Positions 5,990 through 32,000 of a DNA stretch of 32,000 nt are shown piece by piece. The notes under the pieces were generated by a model that did not search any database, had not been told where the DNA came from, and saw only the letters and a list, made by a program, of their open reading frames with translations. The stretch comes from Candidatus Saccharimonadota bacterium (lineage in GTDB: Bacteria > Patescibacteriota > Gracilibacteria > BD1-5 > UBA6164). Position 1 is the stretch's first letter. Each line of letters opens with the position of its first letter. Position numbers and translations under genes: made by a program. The stretch spans positions 360,001-392,000 of the forward strand of contig CP042461.1 of assembly GCA_004563595.2 (NCBI GenBank). The letters are read 5' to 3'.

Positions 5990-6946
5990 ATGAAAAATCT
6001 ATTTAAACTATTCTCAGTATTTTTAATTATTGCAGTTTCTATATTCAGTGTACATGCAGTAAATGCACCAACAAATCTGAAAATGATTGATGCAGGTACA
6101 GATTTTATTAAAATGTGATGGGACGAAGCTGAATGAGCTTGAGGTTATTATATGTATTATGGAAAAAAGTCATGAGTTGATAACTGATATGACTTAGAAT
6201 CATATGAATTAATTGAATGACTGGAGACTCAAATTGATTGACTCGACCCTGCAACTACTTATTATTTTTCAGTAACATCAATTGATGAAAATTGAGATGA
6301 AGCTGGATTTTCAGAAGAATGAGTATTCTCTACTACTAATGTATTATGAGAAAGTATTGAGTGAGCTGTATGAGTAAAATTTGAATTTATTTGAGTAAGT
6401 GTGAAAACATATGATACTTTAGAACTTACTTTTAGTTCTGATCTTGATGCTTCAGATTCTGCCGTACGTGAATTTAAGATAGTGAACAAAGGAGATATAT
6501 TAGATGAAATTGAAGTTATTTCTACTCAATTAAACGAAGCGGACACAAAAAGAATTACTCTTGCTTTATGAGAAAAAACACTTCCAAATACAGAATATGA
6601 AGTTACTGTGATTGCTATCACTGATAAAGATGGAAGAACAATAGAATCATGAATAGATAGTATCGATTCATTTGTTGTTCCTGAAATCATTGAAACCTCT
6701 ATTGTAGATGATGAGCTAGAAGTTGACTTAAAAGCAGCTGCAGAAGTATCAGACACTGATAAAACAGTGGCAGACTGATTGTCATGAGAAGATATGAGTA
6801 GTGATGATGTTGTAAATGATACTATATCAGCAGCAAAATCTAATGAAAAACTTCCAACTACATGACCTGAACATATTTTAATATTTATCCTTGCATTTAT
6901 ACTTTGAACATTAATATTTATCTTCAAATTTAATAAAAGAAGTTAA
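5990..6946 (+). CDS. Secreted FN3 + Ig-like surface protein with C-terminal LPXTG-type sorting signal, 318 aa
   Basis: ATG 5990 to TAA 6944-6946, frame checked. Signal peptide MKNLFKLFSVFLIIAVSIFSVHAVNA. FN3-like region APTNLKMIDAGTDFIKMGWDEAEGAGGYYMYYG...TTYYFSVTSIDENGDEAGFS. C-terminus KLPTTGPEHILIFILAFILGTLIFIFKFNKRS, i.e. LPTTG, a hydrophobic span and a basic tail. Confidence 0.8.
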
Positions 6947-13592: not shown

Positions 13593-13707
13593 ATATGGAT
13601 TTTATTAGAGAATATATATTATATTTGAGAGTACTTTTTTTATCATGAAAATCAATTATTTTTCGCATAAAAAAAGAATTGATTTTGAAAAACCAATTCT
13701 TCTTATT

Positions 13708-14160
13708 CTACACTCTAATTTTTTTTATTTTTTCTCAATACCTCATACACTTTGAAGGTATACATTTTCAAGTGATTCATGCTATAAGAGGAAAGAATCA
13801 AAGGAAAAATATTAATGTATCAATTTCTAAATCAGCAGATCCTTGAATGATAGAAGAAGAATAAAATAGAAGAATTGCAAAAAATATTTGAAGCATTCTC
13901 ATATACTTTTTCTTCAGTAAACAAGCATTACTTATTCATAGTATAATTGGTCATAACCCAAGAGCAATAATTGCATACTTTATTGAAAGTGCGAGATTAT
14001 TTGATATTTCAATTCCAAAAAGAGTAGATTCGAGTTGGTCTCATTGATATATTAAATTATAATACCCAGCAAGAACGATGAGAAGACCGAATATAATTCT
14101 AAAGCTTGTAATTGCTTTATCGCTTGGTCTTTTTTGTAAAAATTGTAATAATTGCATCAT
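13708..14160 (-). CDS. Small integral membrane protein, 150 aa (possibly YgaP/DUF2892-like)
   Basis: Reverse-strand ATG-ATG at 14160 to TAG 13708-13710 (453 nt). About four hydrophobic segments (FRIIFGLLIVLAGYY, AIIALGLGPIILGI, MLQIFFAILLFYSS, LIFFLGFFPLIAGITG). The family assignment is tentative. Confidence 0.55.
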
Positions 14161-14288: not shown

Positions 14289-14363
14289 TGGGATGTCGCC
14301 AAGCGGTAAGGCAACGGACTTTGACTCCGTTATGCGTAGGTTCGAATCCTACCATCCCAACCA
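14289..14363 (+). tRNA. tRNA-Gln (anticodon UUG), CCA encoded
   Basis: The cloverleaf can be read directly: acceptor tgggatg/catccca (U1-A72 as in E. coli tRNA-Gln), D-arm gcc-aagcggtaa-ggc, anticodon stem acgga/tccgt with loop cTTTGac, T-arm gtagg-ttcgaat-cctac, discriminator A, then CCA. Confidence 0.95.
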
Positions 14364-14912: not shown

Positions 14913-16019
14913 TTGCCTACAAAAGTTAACACAAAAGCCCGTATTAATAGACATTTAAGAATTTTCAAAGACGATATATGAATTTCTAAGAAAAATAAAA
15001 AGACGAATCAATCATATACTTTTATACTTTTTGTAATTCTATTACTAACACCTATTTATCCTAGCTTTGCTTCATTTATTCATAATAATAATCAGTTTAA
15101 TTTTGATAGGGGAGATATAGATGAACAATCAATTATCTGATCATATTATTGAGACAATGAAGAAGAAGATGAAGATACGCCTATTTTGGAATCATCGGAT
15201 TCATTTCTATCAGTAAATACTATACTTGATGATGAGAGAGATCTATCATGAACAAATGAGATATTAGATTATGAAGTAAAGCCATGAGAATCATTTTATT
15301 CTATAGCTTATAAGTTTAAAGTTTCAACAAATTCAATTTATTGGGCAAATAATTTTTCTAAGAATCATACTCTTCAACCAGGTGATATATTAAAAATACC
15401 ACCAGTATCAGGATTAATTCATCAAGTTAAAAAATGAGAGACACTCTCAGCTATTGCTAAAAAATATGATGTAGATGAAGATAAGATAAAAAGTCAGAAC
15501 CTTCTTTCTATCTGAGAAACTCTACAAGCTTGAGAAGTTCTTGTGATTCCTGGAGCGATTAAAAAATCTCCAAAACCTATATACAAAAAACCAACGAGCT
15601 ATGCAAAAACATCAGCAAAATCATGATACAAATTTGCGCAAGCTGCGAAGAGTCAATATACAACTAATAAAGGTTCTTACAATTTGATATGGCACAAACC
15701 TCAATCATGAGCTGCTTGAAATTGTACGTGGTATGTAGCATCTTATAAAAAGGTAAATTGGAGATGAAACGCAAATAGATGGATGGCAAATGCGAGAGCA
15801 AAATGACATGCAACTTGAAGTGCACCAAAAGTTTGAGCAATCGTACAGTTTACAGGGAGATGATACAATCCAAGATATGGTCATGTGGCTATTGTAATGG
15901 ACTTAAAGGATGATTATATGATAGTAAGTGATATGAACTACAGAAGGTTATACGAAGTGACTTACCGTAAAGTACCAGTAAATGATAGATCAATAGATTG
16001 ATATATTTATATAGACTAA
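14913..16019 (+). CDS. Secreted peptidoglycan hydrolase: 2x LysM + C-terminal CHAP/NlpC-P60-type amidase/peptidase, 368 aa
   Basis: The frame opens after TAA 14901 and there is no in-frame ATG near the 5' end, so TTG 14913 is the proposed start. TM/signal FILFVILLLTPIYPSFA. LysM 1: YEVKPGESFYSIAYKFKVSTNSIYWANNF...LQPGDILKIP. LysM 2: HQVKKGETLSAIAKKYDVDEDKIKSQN...LQAGEVLVIP. CHAP-like: GNCTWYVASY...GAIVQF...YGHVAIVM. TAA 16017-16019. Confidence 0.85.
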
Positions 16020-16047
16020 AAAATAGAACGAAAGTTCTATTTTTTTA
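16018..16047 (+). terminator. Rho-independent terminator
   Basis: aaaaatagaac gaaa gttctattttttt. Confidence 0.7.
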
Positions 16048-16166: not shown

Positions 16167-19100
16167 ATGAAGAACACTGTAAACAAATATCTCATTTGAG
16201 CAATTTTACTCTTGAGTTTCACTTTTACATCTGTTAATGCAGAGTGTAATGAATGAGTAGACGGTTGTCTATCTGGTTGGAACCATACATCAAATACTGG
16301 TTCTATTTGGAATAATTGGACATGGTTTAATCCAATGTCAGAATTTGGATGAGTTGGTTTTATGATAAATGAAGATAATCCACTTTGGAGTGGTCCTGCA
16401 TTTAATTGGGCAAATGGATGAAGAATTAGGTCTTTTAGTAAAGGAGCGAATGATGGAGCAGCTGTTACAGCTGCGATAGATCCAGATAATAGAGCACCAA
16501 CTACTACGGTGTGAAGTTCTTTTAAAGTAGTTGATCTACCAGAATCCACAAGTAATGGTGCATCTTGGTGGATGTGGTATGATAGAATATGAATGGCCGC
16601 GAGAGGTCTTACCAATGCAAATACTGATAGAATGAGTTTTTATATAAAAACTGAGGATATGGAACCTCTATCAACACCAACGGGGATTAATATATGGGGA
16701 TATCATGTGGGGACATATTTATGTTGGGATGAAGGGTGTAATGGTGGATGAAGTGGATGAGAAGGTCCAGGGAATCAACATTATTATCACTATCTTGGAC
16801 TGAATCCATGAGCATGGATTCATGTAGAGTTAGATCAACATCCACAACATAGAAGGGATTGAAGCGGACCTGTTTTAGGGAACAATCCATCGTTTATAGA
16901 ATCAGGGAAGAATTATTTTGAAAATATGTCTCGTTTTTACATGGAGATTAGGTCAGCTCAAACTGACACAACTACGATGCATATTGATGAAATGGAGTAT
17001 TATTCGACTCAAGACAGTGTAGAACCAAATCAAAATGATGAATCAGTTACTTCTGTTTGGGTAGGGAATTGGAGAGCAGATGATTATTGGGAGATAGGTT
17101 TTGCTGATAATTCGTTTGGTGAGGATAGTATGAATTGAGACACTTGGTCTACTTTTGAAATAAAGTGGTCAACAAGTCCGATTACAAATGCAAACTATGA
17201 TTCAGCAACACTTATAGAACCAATGTTTTACACAGGAGACCAATATACAGATAAGGGCGTATGAGCAATTCGTAGATCTGATTCTTGGGAAAGAGGAGTA
17301 TGGACACGTTTTGAATTACCAGATTCAGTTGAAATAGAGTGAAATAAATTGTATTTTGCTATAAAAGATATATCTATTATATGAACATGAGCTGGTAATG
17401 ATTACCCTTGGAATAAAAATGATCTTTATACTGCACCAACTGATAATATTAGAATTATTGATTATGTTGTAGGTCCAATTGTTGTTAACCCACTTGAGAT
17501 GACAACAACAGAAGTACCAACAGCAATTTTAAATTCATCATATTCAGAACAAATAAGTATTAAATGATGAGTAGCACCACACATATTTTCAACAACATCA
17601 TCACTTCCAGCAGGTGTAACTCTCTCAAATGCAGGTCTTCTTTCAGGAACACCAACTGAGTTAGGGATATTTAATATTGAAGTAATAGTTGATGACTCTA
17701 ATAGTCCATCAACTCAAATTACAAAGAGTTTTACACTGATGGTGAACCCACCGGAAGTATGTAATGATGGAATAGATAATGATGGAAATGGGAAGATAGA
17801 CTGTGCAGATTATGCCTGTACAGATTGATGTAGTCAATTACTGGTAGACTTTTGAAATAGTGCAATAAATGATACCTTTAGTATTTCAGGTTGGAATACA
17901 GTTTTTAAAGATACTTATACTGGTTATTATAACCAATGAATGACGAATACAGCTGGAACGAATAAAGATTATAACTATCAATGAGTTTCTGGTTCATCAA
18001 TGGAATTTGCAGAATGAGATAGAGTTTTACTCACATGGTATAATAATACGAGTTCTCAGATTACATTTACTCCAAGAATAAGTTTTGATGACAATGATAG
18101 ACCTGTTTCAGGAGTTGCAGGAACATGGTACTCAACAACTCAGTGAGTAATAGAAGCTTGATCATATGGTGTAACAGAGTATGAAGTAACATCAGCAAGT
18201 GCAGGAAATTACACACTTGTAAATACAAATGTGAATTATGAACATAATACAGAACTAATCTTAGATAAGATATCGCTTATTGATGCATGAGCGACTGGAG
18301 GGTGAACAGGGACAGGGGCAACAGATATAACAGCTCCAGTATTATCAAATGGATTTCCAAGTGGAGAACAAATATCAGGAACAACAAATACAACATTAAG
18401 TATATCTACCGATGAGAATGCCTTTTGTAAATATTCAACTGTTGTAAATACAACATATGGATCAATGATAAATAGTTTTTCTACAACATGAGCTCAATCA
18501 CATACAGTAAGTGTATGAGGACTTACAGATGGTGTATCGTATACATATTATGTAAGATGTATTGATGGAGATTCAAATGAAAATACAAATGATTACATCA
18601 TTAGCTTTTCAGTATCGGAAGCTTGAACCCCTACAACTTCTACAGGATTGATACATAATTATCAATTTGATGAAAACACTTGAACGGTTCTTTGAGATGG
18701 TTTTGGTGGACAATGAACTATATCAAATGGTTCTTGGAAAACTGGTCTTATAAATTCTGCAGTAGATTTTGATAATACAACTATTTCATTATGAAATATG
18801 GATGTAACATGAAATGGACTTACTATTTCAGCTTGGGTAAATCCAGATACTTTTGCAATTCATGATGCAAGAATCATTTCAAAAACATCAAGCCCATCTG
18901 AAGCTGACCATTATTGGATGATGAGTACACAAGGTGAAAGTGGAAGATATTATCCTCGTTTTCGTTTAAAATCTGATCAAGAAACAGTAACACTTGTATG
19001 ATATAATGTAGAACTTCAAGCATGAATATGGCAACAGATTACTGTGACATACGATCAGGCAACAATGAAGATCTATGTAAACGGTGTTGAAGCTGGATCA

Positions 19101-22100
19101 TCAACAGCTGCAAACTGACCAGTTGCAACAAATGCTACCATAGAAGCTACCATTTGAGCGAATCCAGATGGATCACGTAATTTTGATGGATCAATTGATG
19201 AATTAAAGATATATGATGAAGCTCTGAGTGCAGTAGATGTACTCACTGATTATAATGATGATATAGCTACTTCATGATATACTCCAGGTACAGGAGGTGG
19301 AAGTGGAGGTACAGGAACGGGAGGTACAGGAGGAGGATGAACAATAGAGTGACCAAATAATCCACTTGCTTGAATTTCAGATCTTAAATATACAGGAGCC
19401 TTTATTATTCCTACATGAACATATGGTGTAGCAGGTACTCCATATTCTGAGGGAAAAATTGCATATAATCCTGATAACCATTCTTTGTTTCTTTCTACAG
19501 TAGATTCAAATAACCCTGATACAGATTTTACTGTTCCAGATTCAGTGTTATGAGAATTTTCTATTCCAAATATCAGTATGAGTGAAGATAGGCTTGACCT
19601 GAGTCCAGCTGTAAATATTCAAGGATTTATTGATTTGTATGATGATGCACCAGCATCAAGTTTAGAGCGTATTTCATGAATGTATTATAAAAATGGTGAA
19701 CTATTTGTAAATGGTTTAGTCTTTTATGATGCAAGTGCAAATGGAACAGATACTTCACTTGTTATTCGTGATGCAAATGCAATGGGATCTTCTCAAATTG
19801 ATGGTATCTTTAAAATGGAGTGAGCCGCAAGAGCGGCATGATGGATTTCTGATATCCCATCTGACTGGCAAACTCCATTTGGAGCGACACAAATATCAGG
19901 GAATGCAAGTAATTTAGCGATTGATAGTCGTAATAGTATGGGGCCAAGTGCTTTTACCTTTGATATAGATACTATCATTGGAAATAACTCTCCAGCTACT
20001 ACGATAGCAACTACTACTATCATGAATTACCCATTAAATGAGTATGGTGCAGAGAGTCATGCTATGTATCCTCAAGATAAATTTCCAAACCTTACTCCAA
20101 ATCAATGGATAGGATGGGAATGAGATAATTATGAAAGTGTAGATTATAATAACATAGATTGGGATAATGATGGTACTTTTGATCATGATAATGATCTATG
20201 GACTTCAAATTCTCATGCTGATTATGGATTTATAATTCCATGAACAAATACCTATGCTGTTTTCTGATCTACAGGAGGTGCAGAAAGTGGTATATGATAT
20301 AAAGTAAAAGAAGAAGATAGAATAAATGTTACACCTGGGAGTTGAAACTGTGCATGACCATGTACTTTTGATGGGAATGATACAAGTAATTTCTATTGGT
20401 TCTTTGATGTAGATGATATGATAGCTGTAAAGAGTGGTGTTATGCAAGCTCATGAAGTAAGACCATATAGTTATTGAGAAATGGTGGTTCCATTTGAAAG
20501 AAGAAATGGTTCACTTCATACGATAAAGTGAGGGAGTTATGATGCTACAACACAAACTTTATATTTATCACTTTCTAAGTATTTAGATCCAAATCCACCT
20601 ACTATTGTTACCTACAATGTTGACCTTTCAAACAATGAAAATAATACAGGAACTGGAACAACTACAGGAACAGGAACATCGGATACAACATCTCCATTTC
20701 TTTCAAATGGGACTCCGAGTGGAGAACAGGTATCAGGAACAACAAATGTAACTTTGAGTGTTTCAACAAATGAAAATGCATTTTGTAAATATTCAACAAC
20801 TTCAAACATAGCATATGGATCAATGACAAACAGTTTTTCTACTACATGAGGTCAGTCACATACTATAAGTGTATGAGGATTCACAGATGGTAATTCATAT
20901 AGATACTATGTAAGATGTATTGATTGATCACTCAATGAAAATGCTTCAGATTATGTAATTAATTTTTCAATAGCAGAACCTTCAAGTGCTGCTGTTCCAC
21001 CGGAAAATAATGTCTGCTTACCTTTAGCAGCCCCGAGTCAAAGTGATACAATCATTAATGTAGTGCCATCTCAAGCTCTTCAATTAAGAGATATTATAAT
21101 GTGAGCACAATCTGACACTACTATCTATCTTGCTGATGGAACATATAATGTGGGAAGTAATTTCCGTTTAGAGTTTACTAATCCAAGAGTTACTGTGAGG
21201 TCTCTTTCTTGAAATAGAGATGCGGTAATTGTTGATGGATGATATAATCAATCATGAGCTGCTGAGATATTTTATGTAAATATTCCAAATATTACTATTG
21301 CGGATATTACGATTCAAAAAGCTTATTATCATCCTATTCATGTAACTTGAAATGGTGATAATGCAAACATATATAATGTAAAAATTATAGATGGTGCGGA
21401 ACAATTTATCAAGATTAACCCTGAAGGAACGAATTACCCAGATAATGGGAGAATTAGTTGTTCATATTTTGAATTGACTGATGCATGAAGTACTCATACA
21501 AGGAATGGATGTTATACTGGGGGAATAGATGCTCACTCTGCACAATGATGGTTTGTTAAAAACAATACTTTTAAAGATATCTATTGTCGTGATAATAGTG
21601 GTATAGCTGAACACGCCGTTCACTTTTGGTCACAAAGTAGAGATACTCATGTTGAATGAAACCTCATGATAAATAATGCTCGTGGTATATGATTTGGTCT
21701 CTGAGCAACTCCTACTACTTGAATAAGGTATTATGCTGATCAACCATTACTTGGAACTTCTTTAACAGAAGCTGATGTACAACATATTGGTTGAGTTATT
21801 CAAAATAATATAGTTTATTGAGATAATTGATCATACTTTGATACTGGTATTTGAGTAGAAAAAGCTCATAATCCAAAAATTTATAATAATACTGTATATA
21901 CAAATAATAATGGGAGTCTTCCACTAGATGCACGTTTTACATCAACAACAGCAGAATTTATAAATAATATTTATTATCCAAATTATTTTTCTATACGTGA
22001 TGGTGCAACGGTAAATGCTTCAAATAATATAAGTGTGTGATCTACGGCCTTTGTAGATATTGCAAACCTTGATTTTAATCTTGTTACAGCTTCAGCCCCA

Positions 22101-25100
22101 ATTAACGCTGGTATTGATGTTGGTATTTCAAACGATTTCATTGGGTTCATAAGAGATGCACAACCAGATATTTGAGCTTTAGAATTTAATTCAGGTGGAG
22201 GATGATGAGATATTACAGCTCCAGTATTATCAAACTGAGCTCCAAGTTGAGAACAATCATCAGGAACAACGAATACAATATTAAGTATATCAACAGATGA
22301 GAACGCATTCTGTAAATATTCTACAACTGCAAATACGACATATGGATCAATGATAAATATATTTGCAACAACATGATTACAATGACATAGTGTGAGTATA
22401 TGAGGACTTTCAGATGGAGTATCATATGACTACTATGTTAGGTGTATAGATTGAAGTGGGAACGAAAATACTTCTGATTATACGATTAGTTTTTCAGTAG
22501 CATCTGGCATTCCAAGTTCAGACCCTACTACAAATCCACTTGCACATATAGGAGACTTTGAATACGTATGATGATTTACTTTTGGTTCAACATCATGAGT
22601 ATCAGACCTAAGTTATACCTCAGGGAAATTTGCTGTAAATCCTGCTTCAAATTCGGTTTTCATAGCCAGTCATACAAATCAAGATGCCTTATGAGAATTT
22701 AGTATTCCTGCGTTATCACTTGATTCAGATTATAATAATCTAAACAATGCAACACAAATACAGGACTTTGATTATGTACGTAATAGAGTATTAAATCCTG
22801 AAGCGCATGACGAATTATGATGAATGGCTGTAATTGGCAATAGTTTGTTATTTCATAGCTATACATATTACGATGCAGGTGGAACTAATGTTTGAACAAC
22901 ATCAGTAGTAAAAAATCTATCAGATCTAAAAAATTCTGTAATAGATGGAATATTTCCACTTGCATGAAGGGCTCATTTAATAAGTTGGGCATCATTGATA
23001 CCAACAGAATGGCAAACACTATTATGATGAGATTATATATCATGATCATCAAGCTCAATACCTATTAATTCGAGATCTAGTATGTGACCAAGTGCGTTTG
23101 CATTTCAATCAGATGATCTTTTGAATGCAACCGATACAAATGTAACTATACCGACTACTAAATTATTAGATTTTGGTTTAAGTAATGTATTAGCAAAGAC
23201 ACCTTCAGGGTGGGCAGAATATTGAGACTGGGATCTATATAATGCAAATGGAGATAATGATTTATGGACGGAAGATTCTTGAGCAGAATATGGATTTATA
23301 ATTCCATGAACCAGAACCTATGCAACGATCTGAATGTCATGAATGCATGAAAGTGGAGGATGATACAAGATTACTCAATCAGGTGCAACAGAAGCATGTT
23401 GATGACCATGTGCCTATGATCCACTTGATATGTATAACTATATATGGTTATGGGATGTAAATGATTTCTTAGATGTAAAAAATGGATTAAAACAATCATA
23501 CGAAGTAAAACCATACCAATATGGAAAATTTAATACTCCATTTGAATATAGACTCAATGGAACAAGAAAAAACTTAATTGCTGGTTGATCATATGATGAT
23601 GTATCAAACACATTGTATTTGAATTTAAACAGAGCAGATGGAGAGAATCATGCTGCTTGACCAGTAATCCTTGCCTACAAGATAAATGCGGTAGTAGATA
23701 CTACAGCAGCTATACTTTCAAACGGAACTCCAACTGGAGAACAAGCCTGAGGAACAACGAATGTAAATCTGGCACTTGATACTGATGAGAATGCAACATG
23801 TAAATATTCTACCGTTGCAAATACAGTATTCACAAGTATGACAAATACATTTACTACGACGTGAAATACATCACATTCTACAAATGTAACATGATTAACA
23901 GATGGGAATTCATATACATATTATGTAAGATGTATAGATGGGTATTTGAATGAAAACACAATAGATTACACACTCAATTTTTCAGTAGCGAACACTCCAG
24001 ACACAACAGCACCGATTCTTTCGAACGGAACCCCAAGTGGAGAACAAGCCTCAGGAACAAGTAACGTGAATCTGATACTCGATACCGATGAAAATGCAAC
24101 ATGTAGATACTCTCCAAATGCAAACACATCATATTGAGCAATGTGAAATACATTTACAACCACAGGGAATACAACACATACTACAAAAATTACATGACTG
24201 ACAGACGGAACATCACATACGTATTATGTAAGATGTATGGATGGAAATTCTAATGCAACAATAACAGATTACACACTGAACTTCTCTGTAGCGAATACTC
24301 CAGACACATGAGCACCATTTTTAAGTAATGGACTTCCAAATGGAGAACAAGCTTCAGGAACAACAAATGTAAATCTAACATTAGATACGAATGAAGCATC
24401 AACATGTAAATACTCAACAGTAGTAAATACAACGTATTCATCAATGACAGATATATTTACAACAGGAACCTGAGGAATCACACATACAGCAAATATAACA
24501 TGACTTACAGATGGAACATCACACGCATACTATGTAAGATGTATGGACACTGATTCAAATGAAAATACAATAGACTATACAATTAACTTTTCAGTAGCCA
24601 CAGCAAGTACAAATAGCTGATGAAGTTCATCAGGCTGAAGTTCAAGCTGAGGTTGAGGAGGTTGATGATGAGGATGAGGAAGTTATATCCCAACCTGTAA
24701 AGACGAACAACTCACATGTAAACTGATTCCATGATCGACAACGACTTACAAATGGTATGTACAAGACGAAGTATCATGTAAATATGGGAAACTATGAAGT
24801 CTCTGTTGAGAAGAAGATGTAGTAGAGTTGAATAGTGGATGAACATGAACATGAAGTAGTACAGACAGTACATGATGATGAACATTGAAGAAATACCATT
24901 CAGAAATGACAATCCTTCAATTGATAGAGAAGAGAGTGGACAAAGTAATCGAACAAAAGAAGAAAGATAATGATGACAAAGTAATAGAATACAGAAATGC
25001 TTTTATCAAAGACGTAGAGAATTATATATTAGCCAGACAAGCGAAACAAAGTACAAGAGAACACAAAGTGAAGATACTCGCAACGTTCAAACTCTTTGCA

Positions 25101-25409
25101 AAAGAGTTGAAGAAAGATAGGCTTGCTAAAACAAGTGAAAAGAAGAAATCTACCATAAAGAAATACATAGCTGTACACGAGGCAGTGTATACGCTTTGAG
25201 ATAGACTTGATAGCTTGATAATAAAGTACAATAAGGAGTCGAGTATAAAAGTGTTGTTTTTTAAGAATAAGTTGTTAAAAAGTATGGATTCATACATCAC
25301 AACAAAGAAGAACAAAGAAAAAGGGATAAATTACAAGATTAAATTAAAGATATTAAAAAGTAATATCGGAAAAACTTACAAAATATTCTTGAAAGGATTA
25401 AAGTCTTAA
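16167..25409 (+). CDS. Giant mosaic secreted surface protein, 3,080 aa
   Basis: I read every codon from ATG 16167 to TAA 25407-25409. There is no TAA/TAG in frame, and many TGA codons fall at Gly-like positions. Signal peptide MKNTVNKYLIGAILLLSFTFTSVNA. Domain order by eye: N-terminal ~430-aa domain; He_PIG-like Ig (LPAGVTLSNAGLLSGTPTELGIFNIEV); CNDGIDNDGNGKIDCADYAC motif; ~160-aa CBM-like domain; module R1; LamG/ConA-like domain (...NFDGSIDELKIYDEALSA); Gly linker; ~420-aa unknown domain A; R2; ~400-aa right-handed beta-helix-like domain; R3; domain A' (paralog of A); R4-R5-R6; Gly/Ser linker; small 4-Cys domain; ~175-aa Lys-rich tail. Confidence 0.85.
18330..18614 (+). repeat. 95-aa two-Cys beta-sandwich-like module, copy R1 (type A)
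   Basis: TAPVLSNGFPSGEQISGTTNTTLSISTDENAFCKYSTVVNTTYGSMINSFSTTGAQSHTVSVGGLTDGVSYTYYVRCIDGDSNENTNDYIISFSV. Confidence 0.85.
20688..20972 (+). repeat. 95-aa module, copy R2 (type A)
   Basis: TSPFLSNGTPSGEQVSGTTNVTLSVSTNENAFCKYSTTSNIAYGSMTNSFSTTGGQSHTISVGGFTDGNSYRYYVRCIDGSLNENASDYVINFSI. Same length and register as R1. Confidence 0.85.
22215..22499 (+). repeat. 95-aa module, copy R3 (type A)
   Basis: TAPVLSNGAPSGEQSSGTTNTILSISTDENAFCKYSTTANTTYGSMINIFATTGLQGHSVSIGGLSDGVSYDYYVRCIDGSGNENTSDYTISFSV. Long stretches are identical to R1 at the nucleotide level. Confidence 0.85.
23703..24596 (+). repeat. Tandem array of three modules (R4-R6, type B), exact 303-nt period
   Basis: Module starts are at 23703, 24006 and 24309. 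Each reads (T/G)A(A/P)xLSNGxPxGEQAxGTxNVNLxLDTxEx(A/S)TC(K/R)YS...TGLTDG(N/T)S(Y/H)xYYVRCxD...DYT(L/I)NFSV, joined by ANTPD(T) linkers. Confidence 0.9.
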
Positions 25410-25416
25410 TAATAAA

Positions 25417-25459
25417 AAAGACAAAAAACTACCGGCAAGTTCGGTGGTTTTTTGTCTTT
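25417..25459 (+). terminator. Strong terminator hairpin after giant gene
   Basis: An 18-bp stem, aaagacaaaaaactaccg / cggtggttttttgtcttt, with one G-U pair and a 7-nt loop. Confidence 0.75.
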
Positions 25460-27588: not shown

Positions 27589-28914
27589 ATGAGAAAGCAA
27601 AATATAAATGGGCTTACATTTGTAGAGTTAATTGTTGTTATGGTAGTTGTGGCTATACTTTGAACAATGTGAATAGTTACATTTCAGTGATATTCGAAAG
27701 ATACAAGAGATACTGCTAGAGTAAGTGACTTAGAGCAAATTGATCAAGGTTTAGAGCTATATTTTGCAACTGAGTGAGATGTACCACTTCCAGAAAATAG
27801 TATAGAGATTACAGCTACTGGGAAAATAGTACAGTACCAATGAGATATACCAGATATTACTCTCTCCCTTATTTGATTTCAATGAAAAGGAGTAGATCCC
27901 AAAGATTGAACTCATTATGTATATACATCAGATGGGAAAAATTTTCAATTAATGTGACTTCTTGAGCAGGATAATTGAAATACGGCTATTTGAAAAAGGT
28001 ATCCTTTTTTTAAAGGATGAAAGCTAGGAATATTTATTGACAATACTACAGGTGAATCAATCCATGAAATATGAACAGGTATTGATTTAATTAGTACTAG
28101 TACAGTGTATAAGGTTTATGATAGTAATAATAAAAATGATTATTTTACTTGATCATCAGATACCTTATCAAGAAAGTTATCATATAGAATCAATGGAACT
28201 GCAAACTGTAAGGAAATATTAGAAAAGTGAGTAACAACTTTAGATGGAACATACACTACTGCTATAAGAGATGATGTCCCCATATCCGAGGTATACTGTG
28301 ATATGACTACTGATTGAGGTTGATGGACAGCTGTTGTAATGCTTGCAGATAACACGACTGTAAATATGTTTAAAACATGAACATCATGACTGGTCCCCTC
28401 TGTTACAGAAGATATATCGACTACTTGAGACCTAGGTTACTTTTGGGTTGATGATGAAAATAAAGATATATTGATGCGTTGATGGTCAAGTATGGGGGAG
28501 ATTGAAGACATATACAATTCTTGATCAGTGATTTATAATTTCATGAAAAGAGATTTAGAAAATTTAACACAACAGAAAAAACAAAATGATGCAACAGGGA
28601 AAGGAGAGAGATTTTCCAGCATTCCACTTACTCTGAAGTATATCAATAATTGACAGGAATTCCAAAGTTATACATACTGGTGAGAATCTGCATGAAGTAA
28701 AAATTCACATTATATTATGATTTCTGAACACGTATATTTTATAGATTTGTTTAAATGAAATGGCTACAATAACTGATGTCATAATGATGCTGAAACAGGA
28801 ACGGGGACAGTGTCATCAGATTTCTATGATTATATACAAACAGGACCTAGTCTAAATGAGCCATGTGCTTTGTATTTTAACTCACAAAACTACATGGTCG
28901 TATTCTTAAGATAA
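27589..28914 (+). CDS. Type IV pilin fused to a fibrinogen-related (FReD-like) globular domain, 441 aa
   Basis: ATG 27589 to TAA 28912-28914, every line checked in frame. The N-terminus MRKQNINGLTFVELIVVMVVVAILGTMGIVTFQGY is a prepilin motif. From about aa 205 the sequence reads NCKEILEKGVTTLDGTYTTAIRDDVPISEVYCDMTTDGGGWTAVVML, the hallmark CxEIxxxG...G.Y.I...VYCDMxTDGGGWT motif of fibrinogen C-terminal domains. Two of the three GGG glycines are TGA. Confidence 0.8.
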
Positions 28915-28943: not shown

Positions 28944-31900
28944 ATGTATAAAAAAAATAAAACACTTATAAAAAAAATATTTACTCTCTGACTTATTTTT
29001 TGATCAACTCTCTCAATAGTAGATGCAAGCATGATAGCAGATTATGATAATGGCTGGATAGAAAATGCGGCTGAAAGTCGTCTTGAAGACTCTTCAAGTA
29101 CAGTTTGGACTACTCTAGATACTGGTCATGGTAATCAGAATATGAGCATAGATCCTTCAGGGTGAGTGAGTTGAGCTGCAGCTAAAGTTGATGTAGTTAG
29201 TTACTGAAGTGATGGTCTATTTAAGATATATTTTGCCTATGATGAAGATAGATATACTACGCTAGATGCACCAGATGGGACAAACAGAATGGTCTTATAT
29301 ACTACTATTCCATACTCAGGTGATGGAAATGAACACACGTTTCATATTGGTACCTATTCTAAAGACCCTGCAACGGCAGCTTCGACATCAAATGTAGGGA
29401 ATCACTGGTATCATTACTATGAGTTAAGAGGGAATGATAAAAATTATTGGACGAAAATGTATATGGATACACGTCCTCAGCATGTGGTAGGTGATTCCGA
29501 AAATGCGCCAGAAACGAACCCTACAGCCACTGACGGGTTTAACTACTTTGATGGACTTACAAGGTTATATATACAGATGAGATATTCTCCGTTTGAATCT
29601 AACTGGCCCGGACCGTATACTATGTTTGTAGATGAAATAGAATTTTATGATGAAACAAGAGTAGAAAATGATTATAGTATCAACAGTGTTGCTATAACTT
29701 ATTTTGGTTCTTGAGAATTTGATATAGATTGGAGTTCATTTAGTCCATATGATATTCATAGTGAGACTTTTGAAGTAAGATATTCGCTAAACCCAATAGA
29801 CACAATAGATGACTATTTAGCCTCATCAATTGTACCCGGAAGTCCAGCATGAGGACGGGGGCAAGAAAATATAGGCCATCATGACAATCATTATAGAGCA
29901 AATTTTCAAATTTCTGGTATTGATGAAACAAAGAAGTATTATTTTGCAATTAGAGATTTATATGCGTCTCATCCACAAGATTTAAAAAGAGTTGATTATG
30001 AAGTATTGAATGCTCCAGCACCCATGTATTTAGGTTTCTCATCAAGTAATTTGCTCAACGGTGAAAAAGATTTGTTTTACGCATTTCAACTTGAATGAAA
30101 ATGAGGAAAATCACCATATACATATTCCACTACATCTCAACTTCCTGCATGACTCATGCTTACAAGTGGGTGACTTATATCAGGTATACCTACAGAGTGA
30201 GGAACTTTTAATTTAGATATTACTATCCAAGATTCAGATTCTCCACAGACAAGTGTCCAAAAAACTTTTGTTCTTTATATTAGCGTACCAGAAATTTGTA
30301 CCGATGGAATTGATAATGATGGAAATTGATCAATAGATTGTAATGATCCAATCTGTGTTGGAAATGCTGCATGTGAAGGTTCTGGAGGAGTGTCACTTAT
30401 TAATTTTGGTGATAGTGCAGCAAATAACGTTTTTGGTTTAAGTGGTTGGGATACTGTATTTTTAGATAATTATACAGGCTATTATAATCAATGATCAACC
30501 ATTGTGACAGGTAATAATTCGAATTACAATTACCAAGGGCTGAGTGGTACCTCAAGAACTTTTATAGAAGATGATAAGGTTTTTGCTACTTGGTATAATG
30601 ATGGTCTTTCAAGTATGACCTTTACTCCGTTGGTAAGTTTTACAGACCCTGATAGAAAATGATCAGGAGCTATTCCTACGGGATGGTATGAAATGTCTGA
30701 AGTGACAATTCCTGCTCAGAATTATGGAATTTCAGAGTTTGTTTTTGATACTTCAAATATTTGAGACTATAGTCTTGTAAATGTGAATGTAAATGAGGAT
30801 AATAGTAGCATATTGCTTCTTGATCAAATTTGACTTATTCCAACAGGATCAGTACCAACAGATACAACTGCTCCAGTATTATCAAATGGAGTTCCAAGTT
30901 GAGTCCTTTGATCAGGGACAACAAACACAACGCTCAGTATATCTACAAATGAGAACGCATTTTGTAAATATTCTACAACTGCAAGCACAGTATATGGATC
31001 AATGATAAATACATTTGCTACGACATGATCACAGTCGCATAGTATGAGTATATGAGGACTTATTGATGGAACATCATATACATACTATGTAAAATGTATT
31101 GATTGAGATTCTAATGAAAATACATCAGACTATATAATAAATTTTTCAGTGGCTAATGCTTGAGACATTATAGCTCCTGTACTATCAAATGGAACTCCTA
31201 TAGGAGAACAGGTATGAGGAACAATAAATGTAATTTTAGGGGTTGATACGGATGAAAATTCGACTTGTAAATACTCAACAGTAGTAAATACAGCGTATCC
31301 ATCAATGACAGATACATTTACAACCACATGAAATACAAATCATACAACAAATATTACATGACTTACAGATGGAGCATCATATACATATTATGTAAAATGT
31401 ATAGATGGATCAAGTAATGAAAATATATCAGATTATATAATTAATTTTTCAGTAGCGAATGCTTGAGATACCACAGCTCCTGTGCTATCAAATGGAGCCC
31501 CAGTTTGAGTTCAATCTTCTGGAACAACAAACGTGAATGTGGCATTGACTACGGATGAAAATGCAACATGTAAATATTCAACAGTAGTAAATACAACGTA
31601 TGCATCAATGACAGATACATTTACTACGACATCAAATATAGCTCATAGCACAAATATTACATGACTTACAGATGGAGCATCATATACATATTATGTAAGA
31701 TGTATAGATGGATTAAGTAATGAAAATACATCAGATTATGCTATTAGTTTTTCAGTAGCAATTGAATCTTCAGGTTCGTACTCTGCTATGCTTTCAACAT
31801 TTGAAGTATGATGAAATGAAATATATACATGACCAAGTGCTGATCAAGTAACACGTGTACAAGACAATTATAAATGGATTCCATATCAGTGAGGAAGTTC

Positions 31901-32000
31901 ATATGCACCTACACGGGGATATCTTGAAATAGATGATACAACTGGTGCGAAGTGAAGTAGTGGAAGTTTGAAATATGTTTCAACATGAGGAAGATCTAAT
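28944..32000 (+). CDS. Second giant mosaic surface protein, paralog of 16167-25409 (3' end outside the window; >1,018 aa)
   Basis: ATG 28944 lies 30 nt after the pilin stop with no terminator between. The frame was checked to 32000 with no TAA/TAG. Signal MYKKNKTLIKKIFTLGLIFGSTLSIVDA. The N-terminal architecture matches giant 1: N-domain (HIGTY...HWYHYYEL...MFVDEIEFYDE), He_PIG-like Ig (LPAGLMLTSGGLISGIPTEGGTFNLDI), CTDGIDNDGNGSIDCNDPIC, a CBM-like domain, then three 95-aa modules. Confidence 0.85.
30867..31757 (+). repeat. Tandem array of three 95-aa modules in giant 2 (one type A then two type B), exact 303-nt period
   Basis: Module starts are at 30867, 31170 and 31473. The first copy (TAPVLSNGVPSGVLGSGTTNTTLSISTNENAFCKYSTTASTVYGSMINTFATTG...) is close to R1/R3 of giant 1. 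Copies 2 and 3 resemble R4-R6. Confidence 0.9.

What the first reader, a model, noticed from the sequence alone, without database searches (positions are those of the whole stretch)
16167..25409. 3,080-aa uninterrupted mosaic giant protein with alternating effector domains and spacer modules
I read all 3,081 codons and the only TAA/TAG is the terminal TAA. The architecture is regular: each large domain is followed by one copy of the 95-aa two-Cys module (R1, R2, R3). The large domains are a CBM-like domain, a LamG domain followed by unknown domain A, a beta-helix, and A'. A triple tandem (R4-R6) follows, then a Gly/Ser hinge, a 4-Cys knot-like segment and a Lys-rich tail. This beads-on-a-string layout, combining lectin-like domains (LamG, CBM-like), a beta-helix and duplicated unknown domains, looks like a modular multivalent adhesin/enzyme. 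At about 9.2 kb it takes a large share of what is presumably a very small genome.
Basis: partly seen in the sequence, partly recalled or inferred. Interest (0 to 1): 0.8.

Follow-up and report, generated by a model that had tools for sequence, protein, structure and literature searches.

The report
Giant secreted glycan-targeting surface protein
A 3,080-residue secreted protein of a tiny, host-dependent marine bacterium (a Gracilibacterium, which reads TGA as glycine) strings sugar-binding modules together with three probable polysaccharide-processing domains, most likely to grip and breach the slime coat of other bacteria; the gene is real but already sits in GenBank as a 'hypothetical protein'.

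Summary
Window 16167-25409 (+) is one ATG-to-TAA frame of 3,081 codons with no other TAA/TAG and 133 in-frame TGA. TGA is glycine (code 25), shown in GlmS and at invariant family glycines inside the gene itself. The product is identical to GenBank 'hypothetical protein A9Q91_01905' of Candidatus Gracilibacteria bacterium 28_42_T64, a published closed 1.34-Mb genome.

In order: signal peptide, two-beta-sandwich CBM-like N-domain, He_PIG, acidic 4-Cys motif, unknown domain X, R1, LamG, domain A, R2, beta-helix, R3, A', R4-R6, Gly/Ser hinge, 4-Cys segment, basic two-repeat tail.

New here:
- A is a beta-propeller with no Pfam or NCBIfam model.
- A-family and beta-helix-family genes are neighbours in unrelated genomes, repeatedly inside Wzx/Wzy/exosortase exopolysaccharide loci. 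The giant protein fuses that pair.

Best reading: a surface-displayed glycan-binding and glycan-processing protein for host contact. Catalysis and anchoring are inferred, not shown. It is a new member of the known class of giant surface proteins of episymbiotic CPR bacteria. Interest is moderate.

The parts
16018..16045 (+). Terminator-like hairpin ending the upstream LysM-CHAP gene. It marks the 5' limit of the giant gene's transcription unit.
   Evidence: 12-bp stem, -10.8 kcal/mol, z = -5.3 against shuffles, followed by a T run (sequence).
16167..25409 (+). Complete giant ORF: 3,080 aa plus TAA under genetic code 25.
   Evidence: Identical to NCBI A9Q91_01905.
16167..16241 (+). Sec-type signal peptide (aa 1-25, MKNTVNKYLIGAILLLSFTFTSVNA|E).
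   Evidence: Read from the sequence. It is the strongest hydrophobic window of the protein. This is an inference; no predictor was run.
16242..17477 (+). N-domain (aa 26-437): two beta-sandwiches, the first a CBM-like jelly roll. The family has no Pfam model.
   Evidence: 246 representatives in the exhaustive search, mostly 430-560-aa proteins. No Pfam match. AlphaFold2 pLDDT 90.7, pTM 0.93. Best partial Foldseek matches are CBM16/CBM4/CBM61 and the GH85 beta-sandwiches, with TM to target about 0.5.
17505..17744 (+). He_PIG Ig-like domain (aa 447-526).
   Evidence: Pfam PF05345, 37.1 bits against a cut-off of 24. It drove most hits of the whole-protein search.
17760..17831 (+). Acidic four-Cys motif CNDGIDNDGNGKIDCADYACTDGC (aa 532-555), MopE / acidic double-disulfide-repeat-like.
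   Evidence: NCBIfam acid_disulf_rpt, 23.7 bits, below its cut-off of 41. Pfam Cu-binding_MopE matches in 2 of the 60 sequences of the N-domain alignment. Also present in the paralog (D6).
17835..18302 (+). Domain X (aa 557-712): conserved ~150-aa domain of unknown fold.
   Evidence: Found 1-3 times after the N-domain cassette in other proteins at 29-48% identity. No significant Pfam or PDB match.
18324..18614 (+). R1: FN3-superfamily two-Cys spacer module (aa 720-816).
   Evidence: Weak Pur_ac_phosph_N / DUF7800 hits. R copies in relatives underlie fn3, Pur_ac_phosph_N and DUF7800 hits.
18639..19256 (+). LamG / concanavalin-A-like lectin domain (aa 825-1030; Pfam core aa 871-1025).
   Evidence: Pfam Laminin_G_3, E 1.6e-26, 93.7 bits. 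PDB 5hon, E 1.7e-6.
19257..19340 (+). Gly-rich linker (aa 1031-1058, 50% Gly).
19341..20645 (+). Domain A (aa 1059-1493): beta-propeller of an unnamed family. Putative glycan-processing domain.
   Evidence: 240 homologs, mostly ~410-aa secreted stand-alone proteins. No Pfam, NCBIfam or PDB sequence match. AlphaFold2 pLDDT 84.5, pTM 0.88. Foldseek gives only generic propellers, TM 0.3-0.43. Found in EPS-locus and beta-helix neighbourhoods.
20682..20972 (+). R2 spacer module (aa 1506-1602).
21006..22193 (+). Right-handed parallel beta-helix domain (aa 1614-2009). Putative polysaccharide lyase or hydrolase.
   Evidence: 1,479 homologs, mostly ~450-aa secreted proteins; the best is 55% identical, from a Woesearchaeota MAG. 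33 of 51 relatives match Pfam Beta_helix and 22 match NosD. 37 invariant columns, rich in D/H/R/E/K/C/W. No PDB sequence match.
22209..22499 (+). R3 spacer module (aa 2015-2111).
22533..23687 (+). Domain A' (aa 2123-2507): second copy of the A-family beta-propeller.
   Evidence: 37% identical to A. Keeps 18 of 18 invariant and 34 of 40 near-invariant family residues. It is not A's nearest relative in a distance tree.
23697..24596 (+). R4-R6: triple tandem of spacer modules (aa 2511-2810).
24597..24683 (+). Gly/Ser hinge (aa 2811-2839, 52% Gly).
24684..24821 (+). Four-Cys segment (aa 2840-2885; Cys 2844, 2851, 2871, 2880).
   Evidence: No family match.
24885..25406 (+). Basic C-terminal tail (aa 2907-3080): two ~85-aa repeats, pI 10, net charge +26, poor in Pro and Gly. 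Proposed envelope anchor.
   Evidence: No Pfam or NCBIfam hit. No relatives found in the metagenome scan. The anchoring role is an inference.
25417..25459 (+). Strong terminator-like hairpin with A-run and T-run arms, 8 nt after the stop codon.
   Evidence: 19-bp stem, -24.9 kcal/mol, z = -7.2.
28944..32000 (+). Paralogous giant ORF. It runs off the window and has the same N-cassette followed by three R modules.
   Evidence: 41% identity to giant aa 179-843; R modules 58-77% identical to R1-R6.

Best explanation
The gene encodes one exported, disulfide-stabilised, beads-on-a-string surface protein of a code-25 Gracilibacterium.

Shown:
- It is a single ORF bracketed by terminator-like hairpins.
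- The 2,880-aa body (aa 26-2906) is very acidic (net charge -193). Every Cys-bearing domain has an even number of Cys.
- The N-terminal third is made of lectin-type or Ig-type modules: a CBM-like N-domain, He_PIG, a Cys motif, domain X and LamG.
[quoted passage not shown] They are separated by FN3-like R spacers.
- The end is a triple-R stalk, a Gly/Ser hinge, a 4-Cys segment and a basic two-repeat tail (net +26).

Inferred mechanism:
1. After Sec export, the basic tail holds the protein on the cell's own anionic envelope.
2. The stalk and hinge project the acidic body outward.
3. The distal lectin-like modules bind surface glycans of another bacterium.
4. The A / beta-helix / A' block cuts or modifies that cell's exopolysaccharide or capsule locally.
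5. This lets the episymbiont or predator reach the host surface, together with the type-IV-pilus proteins and the LysM-CHAP wall hydrolase encoded next to the gene.

For: ORF and code.

Transcription unit.

Export and extracellular character: the signal-peptide-like N-terminus is the most hydrophobic window. There are 32 Cys, and every Cys-bearing domain holds an even number. He_PIG, LamG and FN3-like domains are present.

Glycan-binding head: LamG. The N-domain model (pLDDT 90.7) has CBM16/4/61 as its best matches. N-domain relatives co-occur with dockerin, CBM96, CBM9 and Chondroitinase_B.

Glycan-processing core:
- Stand-alone A-family and beta-helix-family proteins all carry signal peptides or lipoprotein boxes.
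- They are adjacent in the order A then beta-helix in L082 and L087. Both lie in the same exopolysaccharide locus in Marinobacter (L080/L081) and Paraglaciecola (L083).
- A LamG protein with weak A-like matches (E 1.4e-10) sits next to the closest beta-helix homolog in a Woesearchaeota MAG (L079).
- Linkage was seen in 3 of 7 A-centred loci against 1 of 77 control loci, Fisher p = 0.0014.
- The A family lies inside Wzx/Wzy, exosortase and glycosyltransferase loci in L080, L083 and L086.
- Both A copies keep all 18 invariant family residues. The beta-helix family has 37 invariant columns.
- Beta-helix and beta-propeller are the two commonest polysaccharide-depolymerase folds in phages (PMC11326577).
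- RbmB is a ~408-aa secreted beta-helix enzyme that degrades VPS, the polysaccharide made by the vps gene clusters (PMC11451748).

Host-interaction setting: PilB, three large pseudopilins (one with a fibrinogen-like domain), the LysM-CHAP hydrolase and a second giant paralog are in the same 32 kb. Giant surface proteins are held to mediate host attachment in the related predator Vampirococcus (PMC8080830).
Against: No catalytic activity, substrate or localisation is shown. Neither A nor the beta-helix has a characterised homolog: there is no Pfam, NCBIfam or PDB sequence match for the segments themselves. Foldseek similarity of A is only generic propeller, TM 0.3-0.43.

Beta-helix and propeller folds also serve as pure binding or structural domains. 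In their native EPS loci these families could modify the polymer (for example by epimerisation) rather than cleave it.

The anchoring role of the tail rests only on charge. The tail has no detectable relatives. The protein lacks an LPXTG signal, although a neighbouring gene has one. It might therefore be released rather than anchored.

The host of this organism is unknown (PMC6851277). No phage depolymerase homology exists.
Confidence: 0.5

Rival explanations
1. Purely structural or adhesive fibril. The protein is a non-catalytic multivalent adhesin or surface-coat component. The propellers, beta-helix and lectin-like domains only bind ligands, and the R modules give reach.
For: All recognisable domains (He_PIG, LamG, FN3-like) are adhesion or binding modules. 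No catalytic family is matched. Giant proteins of Vampirococcus are interpreted as the fibrous, sticky surface. R-module carriers in other CPR and DPANN genomes are typical multi-Ig surface proteins.
Against: A and the beta-helix belong to families of small, secreted, single-domain proteins with many invariant polar residues. They are embedded in polysaccharide biosynthesis loci. That pattern fits enzymes better than adhesins. Both A copies retain every invariant residue.
Confidence: 0.25
2. Self-directed enzyme. The protein remodels the Gracilibacterium's own exopolysaccharide, cell wall or S-layer glycan, as the stand-alone homologs presumably do for their producers, and plays no role against a host.
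For: The stand-alone homologs sit in the producers' own EPS loci. The published genome has polysaccharide-synthesis genes (PMC6851277). GlmS (UDP-GlcNAc precursor synthesis) is 2.6 kb upstream.
Against: In the window the gene is not in an EPS locus. Its neighbours are pilus genes, a wall hydrolase and HtpG. A long lectin-rich, multi-spacer architecture in two paralogous copies is unnecessary for a housekeeping trimming enzyme. In EPS producers the same job is done by ~400-aa proteins.
Confidence: 0.15
3. Artefact or dead gene. The long frame results from mis-assembly of repeats or from reading through real TGA stops, and the segments are really separate genes or a pseudogene.
For: The segments are independent genes in most other organisms. 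The first-stage reader raised repeat mis-assembly.
Against: TGA is demonstrably Gly, including at invariant family glycines inside A and the beta-helix. There is no TAA/TAG in 3,080 codons against 73-180 in the other frames. The repeats are 65-80% identical at the DNA level, with 23 nt or less shared exactly. GC3 equals that of housekeeping genes. Domain junctions are in-frame Gly-rich linkers or R modules. The genome was manually curated to closure (PMC6851277), and the same 3,080-aa product is deposited.
Confidence: 0.03

Closest known systems
Giant cell-surface proteins of predatory or episymbiotic CPR bacteria (Vampirococcus lugosii, Absconditabacteria; PMC8080830), and the 'variety of large extracellular proteins' noted for this same genome (PMC6851277)
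   Same: A code-25 CPR lineage with a small genome. The proteins are longer than 1,300 aa, predicted extracellular, and built from adhesion or interaction domains. They are encoded alongside rich type-IV-pilus gene sets and are thought to mediate host recognition and attachment.
   Different: The domains listed for Vampirococcus (WD40, PKD, saposin, DUF11, integrin, fibronectin) are not those found here. The A / beta-helix / A' core, the N-cassette, the regular R spacing and the basic tail were not described. No orthology was tested, because the Vampirococcus sequences were not retrieved.
Multimodular extracellular carbohydrate-active enzymes (catalytic domains plus CBMs plus FN3/Ig spacers), for example the multimodular xanthanase 6fhj, or the 3,459-aa Colwellia protein with galactose-binding and pectin-lyase/beta-helix domains described in PMC6851277
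   Same: Beads-on-a-string layout with lectin/CBM-like modules, FN3-like spacers, a beta-helix and a signal peptide.
   Different: No domain here matches a CAZy-type family through Pfam or PDB. The carrier organism cannot use sugars through glycolysis or the pentose-phosphate pathway. The protein has a unique basic tail.
Glycanases that act on the producer's own exopolysaccharide, such as Vibrio RbmB (a ~408-aa secreted beta-helix enzyme that degrades VPS; PMC11451748)
   Same: The stand-alone relatives of the beta-helix domain are ~450-aa secreted beta-helix proteins. In Marinobacter and Paraglaciecola, smaller family members (about 320-400 aa) lie inside Wzx/Wzy EPS loci.
   Different: Homology to RbmB was not tested. 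Here the domain is fused into a giant protein and flanked by beta-propellers, and the gene is not in an EPS locus.
Phage tailspike and tail-fibre capsule depolymerases
   Same: They share the logic of a tethered enzyme that binds and digests a surface polysaccharide to reach the cell. The same two folds, beta-helix and beta-propeller, dominate phage depolymerases. Foldseek finds propeller-bearing phage tail proteins at low TM.
   Different: There is no sequence homology to any phage record. There is no sign of a trimerisation or virion-attachment module. The window is a bacterial chromosome.
R-module-bearing surface proteins of CPR bacteria, DPANN archaea, Acidobacteriota and others
   Same: The same ~97-aa two-Cys FN3-like module (T-D/N-E-x-x-x-C-K/R-Y ... 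Y-Y-V-R/K-C-I/M-D) at 48-61% identity (one partial match 67%), in 1-8 copies. It is combined with LamG, He_PIG, fn3, PG_binding and dockerin.
   Different: Those carriers are 350-2,150 aa. Only 1 of 77 loci has the beta-helix family and 2 have the N-domain. None has the full architecture.

Membership tests
Genetic code 25 (Gracilibacteria / Absconditabacteria) | UGA is read as glycine, not as stop or Trp | tested here: met
   19 of 33 TGA in GlmS align with Gly of 4amv and none with Trp. The Walker A and HtpG motif glycines are TGA. Seven invariant family glycines in A and the beta-helix are TGA. NCBI assigns the identical protein to Candidatus Gracilibacteria.
Laminin_G_3 / concanavalin-A-like lectin (Pfam PF13385) | Score above the Pfam gathering threshold | tested here: met
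   93.7 bits against 27.6, aa 871-1025.
He_PIG putative Ig domain (PF05345) | Score above the Pfam gathering threshold | tested here: met
   37.1 bits against 24.
Right-handed parallel beta-helix (Pfam Beta_helix PF13229 / NosD) | Direct match of the segment to the Pfam model | tested here: not met
   No Pfam hit for aa 1605-2012 even at E <= 5.
Right-handed parallel beta-helix (Pfam Beta_helix PF13229 / NosD) | Full-length homology to proteins that do match the model | tested here: met
   Relatives at 41-56% identity over about 98% of the segment. 33 of 51 match Beta_helix and 22 match NosD. No structure was predicted for this segment.
FN3 superfamily (fn3 / Pur_ac_phosph_N / DUF7800) for the R modules | Score above the Pfam gathering threshold | tested here: inconclusive
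   In this protein: 28.2 bits against 30 (Pur_ac_phosph_N) and 22.3 against 27 (DUF7800). In a Woesearchaeota carrier, whole-protein scores pass for all three families on stretches that are R modules. The PDB profile search gives only weak FN3 hits.
Characterised glycoside hydrolase or polysaccharide lyase families (for domains A, A', beta-helix and N) | Sequence or close structural similarity to a characterised catalytic family | tested here: not met
   No PDB sequence or profile hit for A or the beta-helix. Pfam gives none; one beta-helix relative of 51 weakly hits Chondroitinase_B. Foldseek for A gives generic propellers including neuraminidase, GH130 and GH43-like at TM 0.3-0.43.
DUF4185 / GH183 (a UniRef label on one A-family member) | Match to the Pfam DUF4185 model | tested here: not met
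   None of the 54 A-family members matches it at E <= 0.1.
Sortase-anchored LPXTG surface proteins | C-terminal LPXTG motif, hydrophobic segment and basic tail | tested here: not met
   No [LIV]PX[TSA]G motif and no C-terminal hydrophobic window. The neighbouring FN3 protein (5990-6946) does end with LPTTG, a TM segment and KFNKRS.
Phage capsule depolymerases / tailspikes | Homology to phage tail proteins | tested here: not met
   tblastn of A and the beta-helix against 50,697 phage records gave no match. Viral Foldseek hits are low-TM generic propellers.
Phage capsule depolymerases / tailspikes | Trimeric assembly and depolymerase activity | not testable with these tools
   Needs biochemistry or multimer modelling.
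Giant surface proteins of episymbiotic or predatory CPR bacteria (descriptive class) | More than ~1,300 aa, a secretion signal, interaction domains, in a CPR genome with type-IV pili | tested here: met
   3,080 aa, signal-peptide-like N-terminus, LamG, He_PIG and FN3-like domains, pilus genes in the window. Class as described in PMC8080830.
Acidic double-disulfide repeat / MopE motif | Score above the NCBIfam or Pfam cut-off | tested here: inconclusive
   NF033662, 23.7 bits against 41. A single copy with four Cys.

The most novel reading that the evidence does not exclude
The giant protein acts as a 'Rosetta stone'. It reveals a previously unrecognised, widespread two-component exopolysaccharide-processing system: an unnamed ~400-aa beta-propeller family plus a beta-helix subfamily of about 320-450 aa. 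The two are encoded as neighbours in Wzx/Wzy/exosortase EPS loci of marine bacteria. A host-dependent CPR bacterium has fused this pair, in duplicate for the propeller, to a lectin head and a surface anchor. The result would be a cell-tethered capsule depolymerase, a cellular counterpart of phage tailspikes, used to breach host slime.
Probability: 0.3. Interest if true: 0.65.

Novelty: new member of a known kind. Interest (0 to 1): 0.45.

Why it matters
Gracilibacteria have not been cultivated, and how they attach to and exploit hosts is unknown. This protein gives concrete, clonable candidates (A, beta-helix, N-domain) for host-glycan recognition and degradation in an organism that cannot itself ferment sugars.

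Independently of the CPR context, the fusion and the conserved gene neighbourhoods link three unannotated protein families to exopolysaccharide processing. These are the A propeller, this beta-helix subfamily and the N/X cassette. That is a testable functional prediction for hundreds of 'hypothetical' secreted proteins in marine Bacteroidota, Alteromonadales and Marinobacter.

The ORF itself is not new. It is deposited, in a published genome, as a hypothetical protein.

Tried and rejected
- Code 4 (TGA = Trp): rejected. It would give 5.7% Trp, and no TGA aligns with Trp in GlmS.
- Assembly collapse or expansion of repeats: rejected on DNA divergence.
- Identity with the hypervariable PTD-repeat gene of the source paper: rejected. 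There is one PTD tripeptide and no repeat.
- Phage or prophage origin: the context is chromosomal housekeeping, and no phage homologs exist.
- DUF4185/GH183 label for domain A: not supported.
- PDB sequence and profile searches for A, the beta-helix, X and R gave nothing significant.
- The whole-protein homolog search was swamped by He_PIG-containing proteins and was uninformative beyond the self-hit and P0021.
- Tail: no Pfam or NCBIfam hit, and no relatives in the metagenome scan. Amphipathic-helix scoring was unremarkable.
- Retrieving the rest of the paralog and the genome context failed. The exact-product look-up found no record for P0001. The second metagenome scan was empty. The R-module scan of species-representative genomes did not return this genome among its best 80.
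- The Zobellia, L084, L085 and L088 neighbourhoods showed no A/beta-helix pairing.
- From memory, the C-terminus of the pseudopilin at 7075-8625 resembles the Fibrobacter 'FISUMP' domain. Pfam and NCBIfam did not report it, so it is not claimed.
- The simple promoter scan upstream found nothing above the shuffled expectation on the + strand.

Full report
**Observation**

Window 16167-25409 (+) starts with ATG and ends with TAA. It holds 3,081 codons, no other TAA/TAG, and 133 in-frame TGA. The other five frames of the same stretch contain 73-180 TAA/TAG. From composition alone, a TAA/TAG-free run of this length has a probability of about 1e-82. All long ORFs in the window carry in-frame TGA, so recoding is a property of the organism.

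TGA is glycine:
- In GlmS, 19 of 33 TGA align with Gly of the E. coli enzyme and none with Trp.
- The Walker A glycines of the PilB-type ATPase and the IGQFGVGFYSAF glycines of HtpG are TGA.
- Within the giant gene, seven glycines that are invariant in 50 or more standard-code relatives of domains A and beta-helix are TGA.
- With TGA = Gly the protein has 10.7% Gly and 1.4% Trp. With TGA = Trp it would have 5.7% Trp.

**Source**

The 3,080-aa product is 100% identical to NCBI 'hypothetical protein A9Q91_01905 [Candidatus Gracilibacteria bacterium 28_42_T64]' on a 1,343,103-bp contig. This is the manually closed BD1-5 genome of Sieber et al. 2019 (PMC6851277). [quoted passage not shown] It does not dissect this gene. 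Its hypervariable PTD-repeat gene is a different one. The gene is 0.69% of the genome.

**Context**

The window is ordinary chromosome. It carries the RecQ C-terminus, an ABC exporter, a PilB/GspE ATPase, NusG, GreA, GlmS, tRNA-Gln and HtpG. It is also rich in surface and host-interaction genes:
- three large pseudopilins, one with a fibrinogen-like GGGWT domain;
- an FN3 protein ending in LPTTG, a TM segment and a basic tail;
- a TM-LysM-LysM-CHAP peptidoglycan hydrolase immediately upstream;
- a second, paralogous giant ORF from 28944 that runs off the window.

The giant gene is bracketed by terminator-like hairpins. The upstream one spans 16018-16045 (-10.8 kcal/mol, z -5.3). The downstream one spans 25417-25459 (19 bp, -24.9 kcal/mol, z -7.2). 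It therefore looks monocistronic.

**Anatomy (aa; nucleotide coordinates are in 'parts')**

| Segment | Residues | Evidence |
|---|---|---|
| Signal-peptide-like N-terminus | 1-25 | |
| N-domain | 26-437 | |
| He_PIG | 447-526 | Pfam 37.1 bits, |
| Acidic 4-Cys motif | 532-555 | weak acid_disulf_rpt, |
| Domain X | 557-712 | |
| R1 | 720-816 | |
| LamG | 825-1030 | Pfam 93.7 bits, |
| Gly linker | 1031-1058 | |
| A | 1059-1493 | |
| R2 | 1506-1602 | |
| Beta-helix | 1614-2009 | |
| R3 | 2015-2111 | |
| A' | 2123-2507 | |
| R4-R6 | 2511-2810 | |
| Gly/Ser hinge | 2811-2839 | |
| 4-Cys segment | 2840-2885 | |
| Basic tail | 2907-3080 | |

Each of the six R modules has two Cys and is 60-82% identical to R1. 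A and A' are 37% identical. All 32 Cys fall in even numbers per domain. The body (aa 26-2906) has net charge -193, and each of its large segments has a pI of about 4.1-4.7. The tail has net charge +26, pI 10, 2.3% Pro+Gly, and consists of two ~85-aa repeats at 28% identity. There is no LPXTG motif and no C-terminal TM segment.

**Assembly concern**

R copies are 65-80% identical at the nucleotide level, with 23 nt or less shared exactly inside the gene. GC3 (0.17) equals that of housekeeping genes. Every segment carries TGA-Gly codons: 22-67% of Gly codons per segment and 40% overall, against 53-76% in housekeeping genes. The gene is native and long resident in a code-25 lineage. It is not a chimeric artefact.

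**What the unknown domains are**

- **R modules.** These are FN3-superfamily. Scores here are sub-threshold. In a Woesearchaeota carrier, the same module underlies above-threshold fn3, Pur_ac_phosph_N and DUF7800 hits. The module is widespread: 395 confirmed loci in species-representative genomes at about 50-60% identity. It is conspicuous in CPR bacteria and DPANN archaea, and also occurs in Acidobacteriota, Rokubacteria and others. Carriers are 350-2,150 aa with 1-8 copies, together with LamG, He_PIG, PG_binding or dockerin.
- **N-domain.** 246 representatives were found in an exhaustive search, mostly 430-560-aa proteins, with no Pfam match. The AlphaFold2 model is confident (pLDDT 90.7, pTM 0.93). 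It shows two beta-sandwiches whose best partial matches are CBM16, CBM4, CBM61 and GH85 accessory sandwiches. The whole N + He_PIG + Cys + X cassette recurs in the paralog (41% identity) and in 700-900-aa proteins elsewhere. The N-domain also sits inside P0021, a 2,634-aa protein with precomputed CBM9, Chondroitinase_B and PG_binding domains.
- **Domain X.** This is a conserved ~150-aa domain of unknown fold. 'CBM-like' is untested for it.
- **Domain A.** 240 homologs were found at about 32-41% identity over more than 90% of its length. Nearly all are ~410-aa stand-alone proteins of marine Bacteroidota (often with a T9SS sorting domain), Marinobacter, Paraglaciecola, Thalassotalea and others. 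All those inspected carry signal peptides or lipoprotein boxes. There is no Pfam, NCBIfam or PDB sequence match, and the UniRef 'DUF4185' label is unsupported. The AlphaFold2 model (pLDDT 84.5, pTM 0.88) is an all-beta propeller. Foldseek finds only generic propellers (neuraminidase, GH130, GH43-like, WD40, phage tail proteins) at TM 0.3-0.43. A' retains 18 of 18 invariant and 34 of 40 near-invariant family residues. It is no closer to A than to the stand-alone proteins.
- **Beta-helix.** 1,479 homologs were found, mostly ~450-aa secreted proteins. The best is 55% identical, from a Woesearchaeota MAG. 33 of 51 relatives match Pfam Beta_helix. There are 37 invariant columns, rich in D/H/R/E/K/C/W.

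**Key new evidence: the fusion mirrors gene neighbourhoods**

I built local HMMs for A, N, beta-helix and R and scanned loci fetched around stand-alone relatives.

- L082: an A-family gene is immediately followed by a CBM_4_9 + beta-helix-family gene (E 4.9e-93).
- L087: an A-family gene (E 1.8e-70) sits 90 nt upstream of the beta-helix homolog P0350. The order A then beta-helix is the same as in the giant protein.
- Marinobacter (L080/L081) and Paraglaciecola (L083): both families lie in one exopolysaccharide locus. It contains exosortase EpsH/EpsI (L080 also has a PEP-CTERM gene), a Wzx-type flippase, a Wzy polymerase and glycosyltransferases. L083 also carries Wzz, Wza (Poly_export), a priming transferase (Bac_transf) and a polysaccharide deacetylase.
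- L086: two A-family genes sit in a sulfotransferase-rich Wzx/Wzy locus.
- Woesearchaeota contig L079: the closest beta-helix homolog follows a 776-aa LamG protein with weak A-like matches.

A / beta-helix linkage was seen in 3 of 7 A-centred loci, against 1 of 77 R-module control loci (Fisher p = 0.0014). Four other loci showed no pairing (L001, L084, L085, L088). The central LamG - A - beta-helix block of the giant protein is thus a fusion of a conserved gene pair or triplet that is repeatedly associated with exopolysaccharide biosynthesis loci.

**Mechanism**

Shown: one ORF; extracellular-type composition and domains; a lectin-type head; a core of three conserved domains whose free-standing relatives are secreted and EPS-locus-linked; a basic tail.

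Inferred: Sec export; disulfide formation; retention on the anionic envelope by the tail, which is the weakest step; projection by the triple-R stalk and hinge; glycan binding by the N-domain, X and LamG; and local cleavage or modification of a polysaccharide by A, the beta-helix and A'.

Three points support the glycan-processing reading:
- Beta-helix and beta-propeller are the two dominant depolymerase folds in phages (PMC11326577).
- RbmB, a ~408-aa secreted beta-helix enzyme, degrades the VPS exopolysaccharide of Vibrio (PMC11451748).
[quoted passage not shown] The adjacent pili and LysM-CHAP hydrolase fit this reading.

I give this reading 0.5. The rivals are a non-catalytic adhesin or fibril (0.25), remodelling of the organism's own glycans (0.15) and artefact (0.03).

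**Comparison and novelty**

As a kind, giant multidomain surface proteins of episymbiotic or predatory CPR bacteria are known (PMC8080830). They were noted generically for this very genome. The ORF is deposited. It is therefore a new member of a known kind.

What is not in the literature I could search:
- the domain-level architecture;
- the recognition of the A propeller and the N/X cassette as unannotated families;
- the association of A and beta-helix with EPS loci, which the fusion reveals.

No membership in a characterised GH/PL family, in the phage depolymerases or in the LPXTG proteins can be claimed. Each was tested and not met.

**Limits**

- AFDB was not available.
- The rest of the paralog and of the genome could not be fetched.
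- The neighbourhood sample is small (10 independent loci).
- The signal peptide and disulfides are read from the sequence only.

Noticed in passing
window 28944-32000 (+), runs off the window: Second giant ORF, paralogous to the first. It has a signal-peptide-like start, N-domain, He_PIG, the same acidic Cys motif, domain X (41% identity to giant aa 179-843), three tandem R modules, and then a new domain. Its full length and C-terminus (tail or not) are unknown.
   Followed up: partly
window 14913-16019 (+): The gene directly upstream encodes an N-terminal TM segment, two LysM domains and a CHAP domain (TTG start). It is a peptidoglycan hydrolase and could act on a host wall together with the giant protein.
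   Followed up: partly
window 3249-4586, 5329-5886 (-), 7075-8625, 27589-28914: A PilB/GspE ATPase plus three prepilin-type proteins, two of them unusually large (441 and 516 aa). The one at 27589-28914 carries a fibrinogen-like YCDxxxxGGGW lectin-type domain (NF040941, 49.9 bits). Pilins with lectin heads sit next to the giant genes.
   Followed up: partly
window 5990-6946 (+): An FN3/Big_5 surface protein ending in LPTTG, a hydrophobic segment and KFNKRS, which is a sortase-type sorting signal. The organism therefore has LPXTG anchoring, which the giant protein conspicuously lacks.
   Followed up: no
L080/L081 6122-7204 and 9929-11236; L082 9965-13239; L083 7391-11227; L087 8769-11302; L079 7686-11383: An unnamed beta-propeller family (domain A relatives) and a beta-helix subfamily form a conserved gene pair in unrelated bacteria and a DPANN archaeon. 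The pair is often inside Wzx/Wzy/exosortase exopolysaccharide loci. Neither family has a Pfam or NCBIfam model that names it.
   Followed up: partly
L086 7044-8402 (-) and 9989-11317 (+): Two A-family genes lie in one EPS locus that also holds three sulfotransferases and a sulfatase. This hints that the family acts on sulfated exopolysaccharide.
   Followed up: no
window 18324-18614, 20682-20972, 22209-22499 (R1-R3) versus 19341-20645 and 22533-23687 (A, A'): The interspersed spacers R1-R3 are 71-82% identical to each other, while the duplicated A domains are only 37% identical. The spacers seem to be homogenised (gene conversion) or to have spread recently. The paralog's first R groups with R1-R3, and its two later ones group with R4-R6.
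   Followed up: partly
L002-L078 (77 loci from species-representative genomes): The ~97-aa two-Cys R module keeps 48-61% identity (one partial match 67%) across CPR bacteria, DPANN archaea, Acidobacteriota, Rokubacteria, Bacteriovoracaceae and others. That is unusually high for an Ig-like spacer and suggests lateral spread or a specific function beyond spacing.
   Followed up: partly
window 16167-25409 and 28944-31997 versus housekeeping genes: TGA supplies 35-40% of Gly codons in the two giant genes but 53-76% in the other genes checked (housekeeping, pilus and surface genes), at equal GC3 (~0.17). The higher overall G+C of the giant genes (0.34 against 0.26-0.31) comes from codon positions 1-2, that is, from a Gly/Thr/Ser/Ala/Asp-rich composition.
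   Followed up: partly
window 1-32000: GC skew is positive in all but one sliding window (12001-14000), and cumulative skew rises almost monotonically. Most genes are on the + strand, consistent with a leading-strand segment far from origin and terminus. The only tRNA is tRNA-Gln(UUG) at 14289-14363.
   Followed up: no
L079 2867-7765 and 7755-10016 (Woesearchaeota MAG GCA_018221245.1): The closest beta-helix homolog (55% identity) belongs to a DPANN archaeon. It follows a 1,632-aa DUF4215 protein and a 753-aa LamG protein with overlapping gene ends. This looks like a similar surface-protein cassette in another ultra-small episymbiont lineage.
   Followed up: no
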